Shown here: in pieces, positions 1 through 39,860 of the stretch | How the letters are laid out: every line of letters begins with the position of its first letter | How positions within the stretch are numbered: the first letter of the stretch is position 1 | Virus record (IMG/VR): IMGVR_UViG_3300033407_000053 | Span: 1-39,860 of that record | From: a virus | Taxonomy: Duplodnaviria > Caudoviricetes | Length of the DNA stretch: 39,860 bases | Reading direction: 5' to 3' (one strand) | The notes under the pieces: model-generated | The model's input: only the letters and a program-made list of their open reading frames with translations | Databases searched by the model: none | Told to the model about the DNA's origin: nothing | Translations under genes and position numbers: made by a program

Positions 1-283
1 CGCGCCGGTTCCTCGACCAGCCTCAGCAGCCCGTCGAGCTGGTTACGGCGTTTTCGGGCGGCGCGTTTTTCCTGCCGCCGATGCATCGGCTTACTGCGGG
101 CGTCGGCGTTTCGCCGTCACGCGTTGTCACGCAGCACGGAGCCGCCGCAGCGTTCCCGCTGGGGACGCTAACCACGCAGGATATCCCGTTCAATCCAAAC
201 GGACTGTCCGGAATCACGCTGATCGCAGTGGCGAGATTTGGCGCTTTCGACGGGACCAACCTGCAAGGCCTGCTAACGAACCG
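1..283 (+). repeat. Terminal redundancy, left copy (matches 39578-39860)
   Basis: 283-bp ungapped alignment; 11 substitutions within positions 1-156; positions 157-283 (127 bp) identical. Confidence 0.95.
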
Positions 284-16981: not shown

Positions 16982-17253
16982 CACGAAAGCCGGTTCCAAA
17001 CCCACGCCCTATGCTGATCGGCCTCCTCTTCGTCACAGCCAAAAACCTCGGATATCGCAGATACGATCGCATCTTCAGCGGCGTTCGTCATGCTTTTGTT
17101 GGAGTTGTATTTGTTGGTCCAATCGAACAGCTTCGGGTCGCACTTCCGAACAGCTAAGCGAACACGCTCCGCCCGCTCGATTTCTTCAATGGTTTCCAGT
17201 TTTTCGATCAGTGCCGTAATGGCGTCGCGGATTACGTGGTAGTTGGTTCTCAT
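16978..17253 (-). CDS. Hypothetical moron protein (91 aa)
   Basis: AGGGG RBS, its own promoter, lower GC than the flanks. Confidence 0.7.
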   Translation of the reverse strand: MRTNYHVIRDAITALIEKLETIEEIERAERVRLAVRKCDPKLFDWTNKYNSNKSMTNAAEDAIVSAISEVFGCDEEEADQHRAWVWNRLSW

Positions 17254-17288
17254 CTCGTTCCCCTTGTCTGTTTGCTTACTGTGATTAT

Positions 17289-17340
17289 ATTGTAGTGCGG
17301 AAACAAACAGGATGCAAGGATTATTTGTAGTGCGGAAACA
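17289..17340 (-). promoter_or_regulatory. Sigma70 promoter (TTGCAT-N17-TACAAT) with two identical 16-bp operator-like repeats
   Basis: -35 at 17312-17317 and -10 at 17289-17294 on the minus strand; TTGTAGTGCGGAAACA at 17290-17305 and 17325-17340. Confidence 0.75.
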
Positions 17341-18312
17341 TCAATCCAGCTTGTCCGCAAGGTCGCCCATGTCAGGGCTGAAATAAGTATTCAGCAGGAT
17401 CGACAGGTCCCGGTGCCCGCTCATCTTCGCGAGCTCGAGCACGGGCAGCTTTTTCGACAGCCGGGTAAGCGCCTCGCGCCGAAGGTCATGGAATCGCAGC
17501 CCTTCGACCGCCGCTTTCGTGCGGGCTTTCGCCCACAGCGCGGACGTCGACGCGGCCGACACGTCGAAGCATCCGGCAGGCAGCTGATGGATGATGCGGA
17601 TCGCCTCGCGGGACAGTGGCACGTCGCGTGCGTGCCCGTTCTTCGATTCCGCGATGTGCGCCACCCGTCGATCCAGGTCGATCGTCTGCGGAGTAAGACC
17701 GCAAATCTCGCTCGCGCGCATCGCCGTCTCGACCGCGAACAGGGCCGCGGCCGCCACGCGCGAATTGACGGTCGTCAGCGGCCCGTCGTGATACCCGAGG
17801 ACGTGCAACATGGCTTCCATCTCGTCGCCCTCTGGACGCCGTTTGCGGGCCTTGCCGCCGTCCGGGCGCTTCACCCTGGTGAATGGGTTATCCCGCAGCC
17901 AATGCCATTCCCGGATCGACACATTGCAGGCATGGGACAGTGTGACCCATTCGCGCGCAACGGACGCAGAACTGACTTCCTGCAGGCGCTTGTCCCGCCA
18001 CGCCGCGACTGATCGTTCATCGAAGTCCGGCAGCAGCACCCGGGCGATGCCTGACCGCTTGATCCGGTTGATCCGCATCGCCTCGGGGCGGGCGCCTTTC
18101 TTCGTCGGGGTGATCTCGCGCGCGTAGCGGTCCAAGAGGTCGGCGAACGGAATGTTCGGGATCTCGCCGCGGCGCTCGGCGTTGAGGTTCGCTTCGAACT
18201 GAGCCGCCCATGCTTGCGCAGCGCGCTTCGTCAGGAACGATTCCGATCGGTCAATGCCGGCCTTGCGGACGCGTGCCCGCCATACGCTTTTGCGCCTCTC
18301 GATGACTGCCAT
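17341..18312 (-). CDS. int: Tyrosine recombinase / phage integrase
   Basis: Catalytic set TAMRASE (R), SKNG (K), HDLR, SGH and NTY; N-terminal arm-binding-type region WRARVRKAG; likely start MAVIERR. Confidence 0.92.
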   Translation of the reverse strand: MAVIERRKSVWRARVRKAGIDRSESFLTKRAAQAWAAQFEANLNAERRGEIPNIPFADLLDRYAREITPTKKGARPEAMRINRIKRSGIARVLLPDFDERSVAAWRDKRLQEVSSASVAREWVTLSHACNVSIREWHWLRDNPFTRVKRPDGGKARKRRPEGDEMEAMLHVLGYHDGPLTTVNSRVAAAALFAVETAMRASEICGLTPQTIDLDRRVAHIAESKNGHARDVPLSREAIRIIHQLPAGCFDVSAASTSALWAKARTKAAVEGLRFHDLRREALTRLSKKLPVLELAKMSGHRDLSILLNTYFSPDMGDLADKLD

Positions 18313-18328
18313 CTTCAGCCCCTCACCC

Positions 18329-18349
18329 GGCTTGCTTTGGTCGTTATGC
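18329..18349 (+). mobile_element. Right half (L'-R') of a degenerate attC-like site; core of cassette 1
   Basis: GGCTTGCTTTGGTC-GTTATGC; GTTATGC is the exact reverse complement of GCATAAC at 18630. Confidence 0.6.
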
Positions 18350-18616
18350 CCATCCCCGATGCGCGCCCATGCGCGCAACGAGATCGTCAAGCCGGTCCTT
18401 CTGCGTCCGGTGGTCGCCGTTCCGCGGCAAGCCGTGTTGCGCGAAAAACGATTTCCGCTCCTTTAGCCATGCCTTGTACGGGTGCCGCGCCCTATCTCCG
18501 AACGGGTACGCCGCATCAATGGCCTTCGCCGTCTCTTCGCGCGAAAGCCCTTCTTTCTCGCACGCCATCAGCGTTTCAAGCATGACGGTGTGCGCAATCT
18601 CGCCCCATGTGCTCAT
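18344..18616 (-). CDS. Hypothetical protein (cassette 1 ORF)
   Basis: GGAGG RBS; AIDAAYPFG.R..HPYKAWL motif; stop codon lies inside the core site. Confidence 0.75.
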   Translation of the reverse strand: MSTWGEIAHTVMLETLMACEKEGLSREETAKAIDAAYPFGDRARHPYKAWLKERKSFFAQHGLPRNGDHRTQKDRLDDLVARMGAHRGWA

Positions 18617-18629
18617 GTCTGCCTCCGTG

Positions 18630-18688
18630 GCATAACTCGGCGATCAAGCGCGACGAGCTAAAGCCCGCCGCTTAGCTCTGCGTTGGGC
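18630..18688 (+). mobile_element. Integron attC site (59-base element)
   Basis: R'' GCATAAC, 5-nt spacer, L'' GATCAAGC with extra C, inner stem-loop, L' GCTTAGCT, R' GTTGGGC; 59 bp in total. Confidence 0.8.
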
Positions 18689-18876
18689 GTCAGCTTCCGT
18701 TTCCGCTGTGCCGTTGCTCGATTATTCCTGTGCGCCGCCACGCCGATGGGCCGGCCGTCTTCGCTGACAAATACGAAGTCATGCACCAGCCCGCAGTCAC
18801 AGCAGGCAATGCGGTAAATTTCGCCGCTTGGTACCGTGAAGCCTTCGCCATCCTTCCGCTGCGTGTATCTCGCCAT
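18658..18876 (-). CDS. Hypothetical protein with CCDC..H motif (cassette 2 ORF)
   Basis: IACCDCGLVH; C-terminus TPNAELSGGL is encoded by the attC arm. Confidence 0.75.
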   Translation of the reverse strand: MARYTQRKDGEGFTVPSGEIYRIACCDCGLVHDFVFVSEDGRPIGVAAHRNNRATAQRKRKLTPNAELSGGL

Positions 18877-18881
18877 GTCGG

Positions 18882-19079
18882 CTAGTGCTTCGTCGCCAAA
18901 ACAATCCCACGACGTTGCGCCTCAAGTGCGTAGGTCATCAGGCCGGCGAAACATGCTTGGTGCCACTCGGATTCTTTTTCAGCTTCGGCCGCTGCTTCAA
19001 GGTCGGCCCTGGCGCGCGCCATCGCCGCGATCAGTTCCGCGTCGTTCAAGCTGTCAAGGTGCTCTCGTACTTCGCTCAT
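18882..19079 (-). CDS. Hypothetical protein (cassette 2 ORF)
   Basis: GGAG RBS just inside the cassette boundary; 65 aa, helical. Confidence 0.7.
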   Translation of the reverse strand: MSEVREHLDSLNDAELIAAMARARADLEAAAEAEKESEWHQACFAGLMTYALEAQRRGIVLATKH

Positions 19080-19095
19080 TTACATCTCCAAAATC

Positions 19096-19155
19096 GCCCA
19101 GCCCGGCGCTCAAGCGGGACTGTCGTCGGGACAGTGGCTTGGGACACTTTTTGAC
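19096..19155 (+). mobile_element. Degenerate attC site closing cassette 2
   Basis: GCCCAGC (one change from GCCCAAC, the complement of GTTGGGC), N5, GCTCAAGC, GGGACTGTC..GACAGT stem, GCTT-N8-TTTTGAC. Confidence 0.6.
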
Positions 19156-19343
19156 ACGAGCCCCGTAAAACCAGCGGTAATGAGCGGGTTTCAGGCGCCG
19201 CAAAAAGAGGCGGAATCCCAGTATTTGCGGGGCTTTGCGCACTATACGCGGTCATCGCGGAAGATGCCAGTGTGCCGGGGACGGGACTCGAACCATGGCG
19301 CGTTCAGTGGCTTTTGCGGGTGCGCGGGACATTCTTGGGACGC
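19114..19343. other. attP: tRNA-derived core (19272-19294) flanked by GGGAC arm-type repeats
   Basis: Minus strand GGTTCGAGTCCCGTCCCCGGCAC corresponds to a T-loop, T-stem and acceptor 3' strand (tRNA-Leu-like). GGGAC occurs at 19116, 19128, 19141 and at 19326, 19337. Confidence 0.72.
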
Positions 19344-19615
19344 TGCCGGTCCGCCCAGGCCATGACCTCGACCGCTTTCCAGCGGAGCTGACCGCGACCG
19401 GAGGCCGACGGCAGCCGTATCGTATCAGGGAACCCGACCATCAGCGCGTAGCGCTCGGACACCTGGCGGGCGCTCACACCCAGGTAGGCGCCGGCCGCCT
19501 CCGCGTCCCACAGGACTTTATCGGCGGGGATGGCGGGGCGGGACAGGACATCGATCAACCTGTCGAGTTTTTCAGAGATATCGGTCATCGGGGCTTTCTC
19601 GGTGGTTGTGTTCAT
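19304..19615 (-). CDS. Excisionase / AlpA-like winged-helix protein
   Basis: LWDAEAAGAYLGVS...GFP..IRL...LRWKAVEVMAWA pattern; ends 10 bp from the att core. Confidence 0.75.
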   Translation of the reverse strand: MNTTTEKAPMTDISEKLDRLIDVLSRPAIPADKVLWDAEAAGAYLGVSARQVSERYALMVGFPDTIRLPSASGRGQLRWKAVEVMAWADRQRPKNVPRTRKSH

Positions 19616-19782
19616 GTCGGGTCCGTTCCAATCGCCGCCCGCACCAGATCCATCTGCGTGCGCAGTTCGACGAGCTCGTACAGCTGTTCGCGATACACGT
19701 CCATGTGACGCTCCAGTTGTTCGCGCAGCCGCTTGGTCTCGGCTTCGAGGCGGCGCAGTTTGGCGGATTCCTGCTTAGTCAC
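19612..19782 (-). CDS. Small coiled-coil hypothetical protein
   Basis: GTGA and ATGA overlaps with its neighbours. Confidence 0.55.
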   Translation of the reverse strand: MTKQESAKLRRLEAETKRLREQLERHMDVYREQLYELVELRTQMDLVRAAIGTDPT

Positions 19783-20066
19783 CGCTCCCGCTCCTGCGCC
19801 AGCCGATCCTTGACCGAAATAAGCTCGTCGAGCAGGATCCTGAAATCGACTCGCCATTGTTCGAACGACTCGATCAATGCTTTGTTCTCGGACCGTAGGC
19901 GGGCGTTTTCTGCGACGATCCGACGGACGCACTCTGGGATATCGCCAGCAACAGGCAGCGATCCATTTAGCGCCGACCGGATGCCGCTCAGATGCTCGGA
20001 CATTGCCCGGTTCGCGCTGGCGAGAAGACCGAGGTCGCCGGGCGGGGCCTTGTAATCGCACATCAT
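19779..20066 (-). CDS. Hypothetical protein
   Basis: GGAGG RBS; coupled to its neighbours. Confidence 0.6.
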   Translation of the reverse strand: MMCDYKAPPGDLGLLASANRAMSEHLSGIRSALNGSLPVAGDIPECVRRIVAENARLRSENKALIESFEQWRVDFRILLDELISVKDRLAQERER

Positions 20067-23072: not shown

Positions 23073-23717
23073 TTAGGCCGCGGCCTTGAGGTGGTAGTAC
23101 TCGGTGATTGCGGAGTCGACCATTGCGAGGTCGTTCTCGATATGGTCCGCATCGAACAATCCCATCGGCGTCTTTACCGTGTCCTGCCCGTTGTTGCGGG
23201 TGCTGAAAAGGTATTGACCGTTGATGATGCAAGTCCGCATGACGATGGAAAACATCCCCTCCAGGGTAATTTTTTCGTCCAGCATTTTCCCGATTGTTTT
23301 CGCCTTGACCCGGCCCGCTTCGGATGTTTCGGTGTGCGACAGGATGTAGACGCGGACGTGATCCGGCATGGAAGATGCGGCGCACATGATGTCCCACGCA
23401 TGCCGGCCGATATCGGTGAACTTGTCGTATCCGCGCTCATCGGTGCGGCGCATGTACTCGTTTGCGAGGATGTACTGATAGTCGTCAATCACGATGACCG
23501 GGCGCTTGGTCTTGTGCATCAGCGCCACGATCTTTGCGGAGTCGTCGCAAACGATCATGTTTCCGCCAGCCTGCGTGACGTATGCCCAGCCGCTAGAACG
23601 GAACGGCATCGGCTTCTTGATCGCCTGAATTAGCAGCGTATCTGCCGGGTCCATGTTGCGCAGGCTGGTGGATTTGCCGGTCCCGGATTCCCCGAGGATG
23701 AATGCAGCAATGCTCAT
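23073..23717 (-). CDS. Sak4-like recombination ATPase (AAA_24 type)
   Basis: Walker A GESGTGKS, Walker B IVIDDYQY, TVKTPMG motif. Confidence 0.85.
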   Translation of the reverse strand: MSIAAFILGESGTGKSTSLRNMDPADTLLIQAIKKPMPFRSSGWAYVTQAGGNMIVCDDSAKIVALMHKTKRPVIVIDDYQYILANEYMRRTDERGYDKFTDIGRHAWDIMCAASSMPDHVRVYILSHTETSEAGRVKAKTIGKMLDEKITLEGMFSIVMRTCIINGQYLFSTRNNGQDTVKTPMGLFDADHIENDLAMVDSAITEYYHLKAAA

Positions 23718-25314: not shown

Positions 25315-25356
25315 ATTATCGGCATATCGATACCAGATGTCAATCGACAAATCGAT
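25315..25356 (-). promoter_or_regulatory. PL promoter (TTGACA-N17-GATAAT) with two OL operators
   Basis: -35 at 25338-25343, -10 at 25315-25320; ATCGgcatatCGAT (25318) and ATCGacaaatCGAT (25343). Confidence 0.8.
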
Positions 25357-39559: not shown

Positions 39560-39860
39560 TGTCCCGCCTGATCCTTCCGAGTCGGTTTCTCGATCAGCCG
39601 CAGCAGCCCGTCGAGCTGGTTACGGCGTTTTCGGGCGGCGCTTTTTTTCTGCCGCCGATACATCGGCTTACTGCGGGCGTCGGCGTTGCGCCGTCACGCG
39701 TTGTCACGCAGCACGGCGCCGCCGCAGCGTTCGCGCTGGGGACGCTAACCACGCAGGATATCCCGTTCAATCCAAACGGACTGTCCGGAATCACGCTGAT
39801 CGCAGTGGCGAGATTTGGCGCTTTCGACGGGACCAACCTGCAAGGCCTGCTAACGAACCG
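39559..39860 (+). CDS. 5' part of the LamG-like/repeat gene (continues across the origin to 1502)
   Basis: ATG in a TAATG overlap; MSRLILPSRFLDQPQQP... is in frame with ORF 81..1502. Confidence 0.75.
   Translation, partial: MSRLILPSRFLDQPQQPVELVTAFSGGAFFLPPIHRLTAGVGVAPSRVVTQHGAAAAFALGTLTTQDIPFNPNGLSGITLIAVARFGAFDGTNLQGLLTN
39578..39860 (+). repeat. Terminal redundancy, right copy (matches 1-283)
   Basis: Direct comparison of the two window ends. Confidence 0.95.

What the first reader, a model, noticed from the sequence alone, without database searches (positions are those of the whole stretch)
18344..19110. Cassette ORFs are antisense to attC polarity but aligned with phage transcription
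Seen: the extra base in L'' (TCAAGC) marks the + strand as the attC top strand, yet all three ORFs are on the - strand. On the - strand each cassette starts with a core-like heptamer followed by an RBS and ATG (GTTATGC-cacGGAGGcagacATG; GCTGGGC-gattttGGAGatgtaaATG). One stop codon sits in the core (GCA TAA C), and one ORF reads into the attC arm (TPNAELSGGL). Established: ordinary cassette ORFs are usually sense to the top strand so that Pc expresses them. Inference: these may be a phage-adapted class of inverted cassettes, expressed in the phage operon but silent if inserted at a host attI. Host integrons could then act as a reservoir of phage genes.
Basis: partly seen in the sequence, partly recalled or inferred. 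Interest (0 to 1): 0.75.

Follow-up and report, generated by a model that had tools for sequence, protein, structure and literature searches.

The report
Backwards integron cassettes in a phage
This temperate phage carries three small genes bounded by integron-type recombination sites but facing the opposite way from bacterial integron genes; that backwards layout is the rule in the viral contigs sampled, and it likely lets phages swap their own accessory genes with an integron integrase while keeping them apart from the host's cassette pool.

Summary
Confirmed, with a correction: there is one intact attC (18630-18688) and two half-sites, making two cassettes (ORF1; ORF3+ORF2) between attP and the phage integrase. 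Bulge positions and a model trained on bacterial attC make + the top strand (40.4 bits on -, no + hit); all three ORFs are on -. Folding energy alone does not favour either strand. Relatives switch content exactly at the AAC|G crossover (L001; five ORF1 relatives, five different attC bodies) or have an empty site (L087). Survey, one vote per contig: viral 64 antisense, 5 sense, 8 undecided of 77; bacterial 5, 53, 15 of 73. Cores at the two ends of a cassette match far above shuffles, as for excised circles. The window has no IntI; two prophages carry their own, co-oriented with reversed genes. One chromosomal integron holds a reversed cassette in first position, the only support for a host reservoir. 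Expression and recombination are untested. Not found in ten literature searches; this scan noted the same layout earlier in other phages.

The parts
17341..18312 (-). Phage tyrosine integrase (323 aa), not an integron integrase
   Evidence: phrog_1 E 3e-48; no TIGR02249 match
18330..18349 (+). Half attC: L'-like box, 6-nt spacer and R' core GTTATGC (18343-18349); left end of cassette 1; holds the ORF1 stop on -
   Evidence: sequence; same core ends ORF1 in five relatives, where a full attC follows
18344..18616 (-). ORF1, 90 aa, cassette 1 gene, GGAGG ribosome site; unknown function
   Evidence: 66 homologues; no PHROG, Pfam or NCBIfam family
18630..18688 (+). Intact attC, top strand +; its R'' is the perfect complement of the core at 18343; crossover G|TT at 18682/18683
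   Evidence: identity to L001 ends at 18681
18658..18876 (-). ORF2, 72 aa, widespread phage protein with a CCDCGLVH motif; its tail is read through the attC arm
   Evidence: about 545 viral stretches encode relatives; 86-90% identical relatives are ordinary operon genes without attC
18882..19079 (-). ORF3, 65 aa, first gene of cassette 2; unknown function
   Evidence: 4 homologues incl. itself; identical in L001
19096..19115 (+). Half attC: mutated R'' GCCCAGC, spacer, L'' GCTCAAGC; no R', so cassette 2 is likely fixed
   Evidence: sequence; identical in L001; absent from L087 and L088
19116..19341 (.). attP region: GGGAC arm-like repeats and a 23-nt core (19272-19294) equal to a tRNA 3' end; weak promoter-like site 19270-19241 on -
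   Evidence: arm function inferred
19304..19615 (-). Small gene in the excisionase position, last of the leftward early genes before attP
   Evidence: phrog_4996, unknown function; excisionase role inferred from position
25315..25343 (-). Promoter-like site (11 of 12) heading the leftward early genes; no terminator-like site called on - between it and the integrase
   Evidence: consensus match only

Best explanation
The locus is a short remnant array of reversed-polarity integron cassettes in a temperate phage: each unit carries its attC hairpin and ribosome site in front of its gene, units have been swapped between related phages at the attC crossover, likely by an integron integrase supplied in trans, and the genes would be transcribed with the phage early genes and integrase rather than from an integron Pc. 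Shown: polarity, co-orientation with flanking phage genes, switch points at the core, matching cores within cassettes, absence of IntI in the window. Inferred: (1) IntI folds and cuts the bottom strand as usual, excising and inserting these units as circles; (2) the enzyme comes from the host integron or from another phage that encodes one; (3) since IntI keeps polarity, reversed units stay expressed only in reversed arrays, while ordinary host cassettes landing there, and reversed units landing at a host attI, would face away from the promoter, which keeps the two pools apart; (4) in prophages with their own intI the usual intI-attC geometry is kept and reversing the genes puts cassettes and intI in one early transcript, a likely origin of the polarity; (5) here only the central attC is intact, so cassette 2 is likely fixed and new units can come and go on its integrase side.
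For: L001 is 96.4% identical over 614 nt from attP to position 18681 and then carries a different attC body and two other reversed genes; a contig of run X2 leaves the window at the same base (may be the same phage as L001). L087 has attP directly on the integrase and a contig of X3 shows the same skip with only 31 letters on one side. ORF1 relatives L500, L501, L503, L504, L506 end in the same core followed by five different attC bodies and genes; ORF2 is followed by three different bodies in the window, L001 and L002. Cores at the two ends of one cassette are perfectly complementary in 34 of 45 cassettes against 16.4 in within-locus shuffles, 0 of 20,000 shuffles reaching it; 94 of 120 against 35 of 164 within single attC in the wider viral set, like bacterial arrays, 109 of 127 against 53 of 166. 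Ribosome site plus ATG plus ORF right after R'' on the bottom strand: 51 of 87 viral, 2 of 138 bacterial sites; the sense signature 1 of 85 and 28 of 142. Prophages G054 and G225 have reversed cassettes followed by a co-oriented IntI over the curated cut-off (427 and 462 bits). Rhodanobacter caeni holds an intact IntI with its own array and a prophage with 6 reversed attC hits, sharing a stem sequence. Qi 2023 showed IntI1 recombines five of six phage attC tested (PMC9892861, results read); Loot preprint shows insertion at GWT sites (10.1101/2022.09.11.507474, discussion read).
Against: No recombination or expression experiment. No IntI in the window (68% complete by CheckV) or in its complete relative G001; among 88 viral records searched 4 had IntI over the cut-off and only 1 of these had reversed cassettes. 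The host is unknown. Both outer sites are broken, and the integrase-side junction differs between the window and L001, so other kinds of recombination also shaped the locus. The attC body in front of ORF1 differs between the window and L500, which IntI exchange alone does not explain. Folding energy does not favour the bottom strand.
Confidence: 0.7

Rival explanations
1. The attC sites are relics that now serve as short homology linkers: phage recombinases (the window has a Sak4-like annealing protein and SSB) swap genes between similar hairpins, as with boundary sequences of lambdoid phages (recalled), and IntI is no longer involved.
For: No IntI in the window or in most such phages; half-sites and mutated cores in the window and L001; Sak4-like gene at 23073-23717; ORF1's own attC body differs in L500.
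Against: Switch points lie at the core with unrelated hairpins beyond; cores pair across each cassette, not across each attC; bulge pattern is kept across phages although only IntI is known to read it.
Confidence: 0.15
2. The phage's own tyrosine integrase, or another phage recombinase, acts on these sites, so the array beside int is a self-contained system.
For: The array sits where an integron array would sit relative to intI; arrays near integrase or excisionase genes also in L291, L493, L148.
Against: Int has no TIGR02249 match; close relatives with 85-94% identical Int have no attC (L087, L088); arrays also lie by serine recombinases, in replication regions and between head genes.
Confidence: 0.05
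3. The hairpins are kept mainly as RNA elements (processing, stability or translation start) in front of early genes; their recombination role is incidental.
For: Each hairpin lies just upstream of a ribosome site at a narrow distance, mostly 14-37 nt to the ATG.
Against: Many genes read through the hairpin (ORF2; tails of P0010, P0012, P0014, P0016); conservation follows IntI boxes; core pairing across cassettes needs DNA circles.
Confidence: 0.07
4. The ORFs on - are shadows or the contig is a chimera, and the real cassettes are ordinary sense or empty cassettes.
For: Long shadow ORFs exist on + (18369-18635, 88 aa).
Against: The - strand proteins have conserved homologues; one contig at depth 47 spans 17200-19800 with no differences (possibly the source sample); an independent phage contig shares the layout (L001).
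Confidence: 0.02

Closest known systems
Integron gene cassettes and attC sites (class 1 and chromosomal integrons; Nivina 2016 PMC5027507, Cury 2016 PMC4889954, passages seen)
   Same: R''-L''-L'-R' anatomy, extra bases at 16 and 24, crossover at G|TT, complementary cores across each cassette, near-identical attC sequences in phages and bacteria.
   Different: Genes lie on the bottom strand, so the hairpin precedes its gene; no intI, attI or Pc in the window; cargo is phage accessory genes.
Phage CALINs of Qi et al. 2023 (PMC9892861; main text parts 1-4 of 7 and passages of the supplement seen)
   Same: attC clusters without integrase in phage genomes; DNA methyltransferase cargo.
   Different: Their worked example TJE1 is canonical: annotated genes on +, attC bottom strand on - for 3 of 3 sites. 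The text read makes no statement on gene polarity relative to the bottom strand.
SALIN and attG insertion (Loot et al. preprint 10.1101/2022.09.11.507474; passages and discussion seen)
   Same: By count of intact sites the window is a single attC lacking an integrase; GWT insertion offers a route into phage operons.
   Different: Described for ordinary cassettes landing in either orientation; here the genes inside the units are reversed and are phage genes.
Inverted-integrase integrons (Treponema and others; Cury 2016 passage)
   Same: An orientation anomaly in integrons.
   Different: There intI is flipped relative to attC; in G054 and G225 intI keeps the usual orientation to attC and the cassette genes are flipped.

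Membership tests
attC site | R''/R' cores (AAC, GTT) and paired L''/L' boxes with 5-6 nt spacers, 57-141 bp | tested here: met
   59 bp
attC site | Extrahelical G16 and T23/24 on the bottom strand with a 6-bp stem | tested here: met
   C16 and A24 on +
attC site | Bottom strand folds more stably (an average trend) | tested here: not met
   -4.0 bottom against -4.7 top; spacers are purine-rich on -, one G-T pair on - only
attC site | Recombined by IntI as a folded bottom strand | not testable with these tools
   indirect only: switch points at the core
Integron gene cassette | Moves as a unit bounded by complementary cores | tested here: met
   cassette 1 cores 7 of 7, cassette 2 6 of 7; six different neighbours for the ORF1 end
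Integron gene cassette (canonical) | Gene on the top strand, upstream of its attC | tested here: not met
   3 of 3 ORFs on the bottom strand
Complete integron | intI gene next to the array | tested here: not met
Complete integron | attI site and Pc promoter | tested here: inconclusive
   site at 18330-18349 looks like a half attC; no + strand promoter-like site called in front of it; attI has no general model here
CALIN (two or more attC, no intI) | At least two attC within 4 kb | tested here: not met
   one intact site plus two half-sites; relatives have larger arrays

The most novel reading that the evidence does not exclude
Phages run a second, mirror-image cassette pool on the integron machinery: ordinary phage early genes are turned into reversed cassettes by attC insertion at gene ends, shuffled by host or phage IntI, and polarity acts as a self/non-self filter, so that phage counter-defence cargo is expressed only in phages while the host's anti-phage cassettes are silent there; host integrons occasionally store reversed units silently. 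ORF1 and ORF2, found both as plain operon genes and as cassettes, would make cassette birth directly traceable.
Probability: 0.35. Interest if true: 0.85.

Novelty: new variant of a known kind. Interest (0 to 1): 0.7.

Why it matters
Integron work assumes that cassette genes lie on the top strand so that Pc expresses them. The viral sample shows the opposite as the rule, with arrays of up to 13 sites. If IntI drives the exchange, integron recombination is a mechanism of phage genome mosaicism at gene boundaries, and it acts on cargo that includes DNA methyltransferases, RNA ligases, a Lar-like and a Mom-like protein, while host integrons are reported to store anti-phage systems (10.1101/2024.07.02.601686, abstract start and passages seen). 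How cassettes are first made is an open question (my knowledge); families such as ORF1 (attC in 5 of 94 loci, all among the closest relatives) and ORF2 (plain genes at 86-90% identity) offer before-and-after pairs. This particular locus is a small, partly decayed example, valuable for its filled, swapped and empty relatives.

Tried and rejected
Rfam at gathering thresholds and ARAGORN found nothing in the window. My first attC script had the extra base at the wrong place and missed the site; the second still missed it on a stem filter; both were replaced by a pattern plus energy filter and the covariance model. The constrained fold crashed and was redone. The CAAC pattern gave mostly chance matches (6 of 112 passed). 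A longest-ORF rule alone was noisy at high GC (viral 54 anti, 15 sense, 53 unclear of 122). L115 was called antisense by my gene caller but is a bacterial sense integron. Of 19 hits of the reversed-cassette pattern in 602 genome searches, 7 were reversed cassettes; L618 and L627 were read and are chance ribosome sites at sense cassettes, the other 10 had the opposite polarity or no attC by the model. A scan for relatives of the G054 IntI in viral contigs gave only itself with attC. Two attC probes found only class 1-type records or nothing among cultured phages. The L620 protein had no match in cultured phages or my loci and was found in 1 of 401 family genomes; its relatives carry no informative names. 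No RNA holder was listed. The protein atlas did not answer. The host was not identified: named integrase relatives are about 50% identical, from Chromobacterium, Sulfuricella, Mergibacter and unclassified Gammaproteobacteria. An 'opened two-cassette circle' origin for the two half-sites was considered and dropped because L001 shares one half-site but not the other.

Full report
Setting. The window is a temperate phage contig with terminase, portal, major head, ejection, endolysin, repressor, helicase, primase, Sak4-like, SSB, Gam-like and integrase genes; it is a virus record estimated 68% complete, with a 278-nt repeat at 96.8% identity between its ends. The finding lies between the integrase (17341-18312, -) and an attP-like region whose 23-nt core equals the 3' end of tRNA genes in two other contigs (tRNA-Leu in L482). 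All genes called from about 26,500 down to the integrase are on - (my gene caller), headed by a promoter-like site at 25343.

Observation. Read on -, the order is attP, half attC (19115-19096), ORF3, ORF2, intact attC (18688-18630), ORF1, half attC (18349-18330), integrase. Polarity was tested three ways. The extra bases fall at 16 and 24 counted on +, as described for G16 and T23/24 of bottom strands (PMC5027507, passages). A covariance model from 41 attC bottom strands in bacterial contigs (40 to my knowledge flanked by sense genes or from the same loci) hits only - at this place, 40.4 bits, and agrees with the experimentally used strand of a TJE1 site. Folding energy did not agree: + folds slightly better. 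I take the bulges as decisive, since the paper gives the energy skew as an average. The ORFs are real genes by homology though in no PHROG, Pfam or NCBIfam family.

Relatives of this locus. Three viral contigs have close integrases. L087 has attP directly on the integrase; L088 has one other gene and no attC hit. L001/L086 is 96.4% identical over 614 nt from attP through ORF3 and ORF2 to position 18681, one base past the IntI crossover, then has a different attC body, a 72-aa gene, another attC and a 105-aa phage-family gene, all on the bottom strand. Contigs of runs X2 and X3 show the same two alternatives; X1, possibly the source sample, spans the region without differences. ORF1 relatives: of 94 loci scanned (79 of 80 metagenome loci, own contig left out, and 15 of 24 viral loci), 5 have attC hits, and they are the 67-84% identical relatives; each ends in the same core followed by a different attC body. 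L502 (62%) is a plain operon gene. ORF2: of 62 of 80 relative loci scanned, 1 had attC hits, away from the gene; L001 and L002 have attC right behind it, while the 86-90% identical L003 and L005 do not.

Survey. After a hairpin filter 90 viral and 144 bacterial distinct sites remained (of 133, 112 and 194 matches). Flanking genes by my self-trained caller: viral 80 antisense (one a miscall, L115), 7 sense, 1 mixed, 2 none; bacterial 10 antisense, 88 sense, 9 mixed, 37 none. One vote per contig: 64/5/8 of 77 against 5/53/15 of 73, Fisher p 7e-24, not corrected for kinship. A caller-free signature agrees: 51 of 87 against 2 of 138 antisense, 1 of 85 against 28 of 142 sense. Whole cassettes between model hits: viral 97 antisense, 3 sense, 22 unclear of 122; bacterial 74 sense, 16 antisense, 39 unclear of 129 by score, with 3 antisense by both rules and only L275 scoring like a gene. 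Of the 5 antisense bacterial contigs, L273 and L291 are prophages and L264 has a phage integrase fragment; L309 and L324 were not resolved. Of the 5 sense viral contigs, L106 and L204 carry IntI. Named cargo among 93 viral flanking proteins includes DNA methyltransferases, two RNA ligases, Lar-like, Mom-like, DHH, HNH and excisionase; most have no family. The cultured phage TJE1 is a counter-example with canonical polarity.

Mechanism. In an array built from excised circles, the core that starts a cassette and the inverse core that ends it are complementary, while the two cores of one attC come from different cassettes (established integron logic). Reversed arrays obey this: 34 of 45 perfect against 16.4 in shuffles and 13 of 61 within single sites; 94 of 120 against 35 of 164 (overlapping set). 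With switch points at the core this is the footprint of IntI-type recombination. The window's Int is not IntI. Of 88 viral records searched, 4 had IntI over the cut-off; one, the Mu-like prophage G054, has reversed cassettes leading into a co-oriented intI. A second case, G225, came from a pattern search of 602 genomes: repressor, early genes, three reversed attC, intI. Rhodanobacter caeni has both a chromosomal IntI array and a prophage with a reversed array sharing a stem sequence. So the enzyme is likely host-supplied or borrowed. That SOS induces both prophages and intI is recalled, not checked here. Because IntI keeps polarity, the two pools would stay separate once reversed: inference, consistent with 0 of 238 viral proteins matching 376 kb of bacterial integron loci, a small test.

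Reservoir claim. One case fits: in G333 a chromosomal integron (IntI 502 bits, beside hrpA and acsA) has in first position a cassette with perfect cores, a GGAG site and a 66-aa gene on the bottom strand, followed by a 174-aa sense gene. The 66-aa protein has 38 cluster representatives and occurs in 1 of 401 family genomes, but nothing shows that it is viral, and a frame of about 80 codons without a clear start is open on the top strand. The claim stays open.

Literature. Phage attC sites and their recombination by IntI1 are published (PMC9892861, parts 1-4 of 7 and supplement passages). Cury 2016 noted phage-like integrases beside fewer than three attC without interpreting them (PMC4889954, passages). 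Ten searches and term look-ups in PMC8618304, PMC8876359, PMC9024848, PMC13323075, PMC13676570 and two preprints gave no description of systematically reversed cassette genes in phages. The library lacks most subscription papers, preprint supplements were closed, and the annotation file of Qi 2023 was not seen; its other CALINs may include reversed ones. Earlier notes of this scan report the same layout in other phages; they prompted my search for phage-encoded IntI, which I confirmed in two prophages.

Verdict. Expression, silence at attI and a host reservoir are untested or rest on one case. New variant of a known kind; interest 0.7.

Noticed in passing
L620:1461-1760 (G333:C11): Chromosomal integron beside hrpA whose first cassette is reversed (66-aa conserved protein) and whose next gene is sense; candidate capture of a phage-type cassette.
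   Followed up: partly
L479/L486 (G054) and L636:9082-11803 (G225): Prophages with reversed cassettes followed by their own intact IntI in the same direction as the early genes.
   Followed up: partly
L291/L630 and L498 (G091, Rhodanobacter caeni): A cultured strain with both a chromosomal integron and a prophage carrying a reversed array; a ready test system.
   Followed up: partly
L621:1156-1586 (G374): Reversed cassette between portal and minor head genes, so such units also enter late operons.
   Followed up: no
L488:660-1128 (G001): The closest relative has further reversed attC upstream of the excisionase-position gene, on the other side of attP; the window has none there.
   Followed up: partly
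L158:1582-2334: Viral array with a unit holding two convergent ORFs, one on each strand.
   Followed up: no
L136:812-955: Two attC hits only about 30 nt apart, an apparently empty cassette in a viral array.
   Followed up: no
viral attC list: Many reversed sites have TGA a few bases upstream of the core, as if inserted at stop-start junctions of phage operons; not counted.
   Followed up: no
window 6-283 and 39583-39860: 278-nt repeat at 96.8% identity between the contig ends; near-circular assembly or an internally repeated gene.
   Followed up: no
L275: One clearly coding antisense gene (142 aa) inside a Silanimonas sense array.
   Followed up: no
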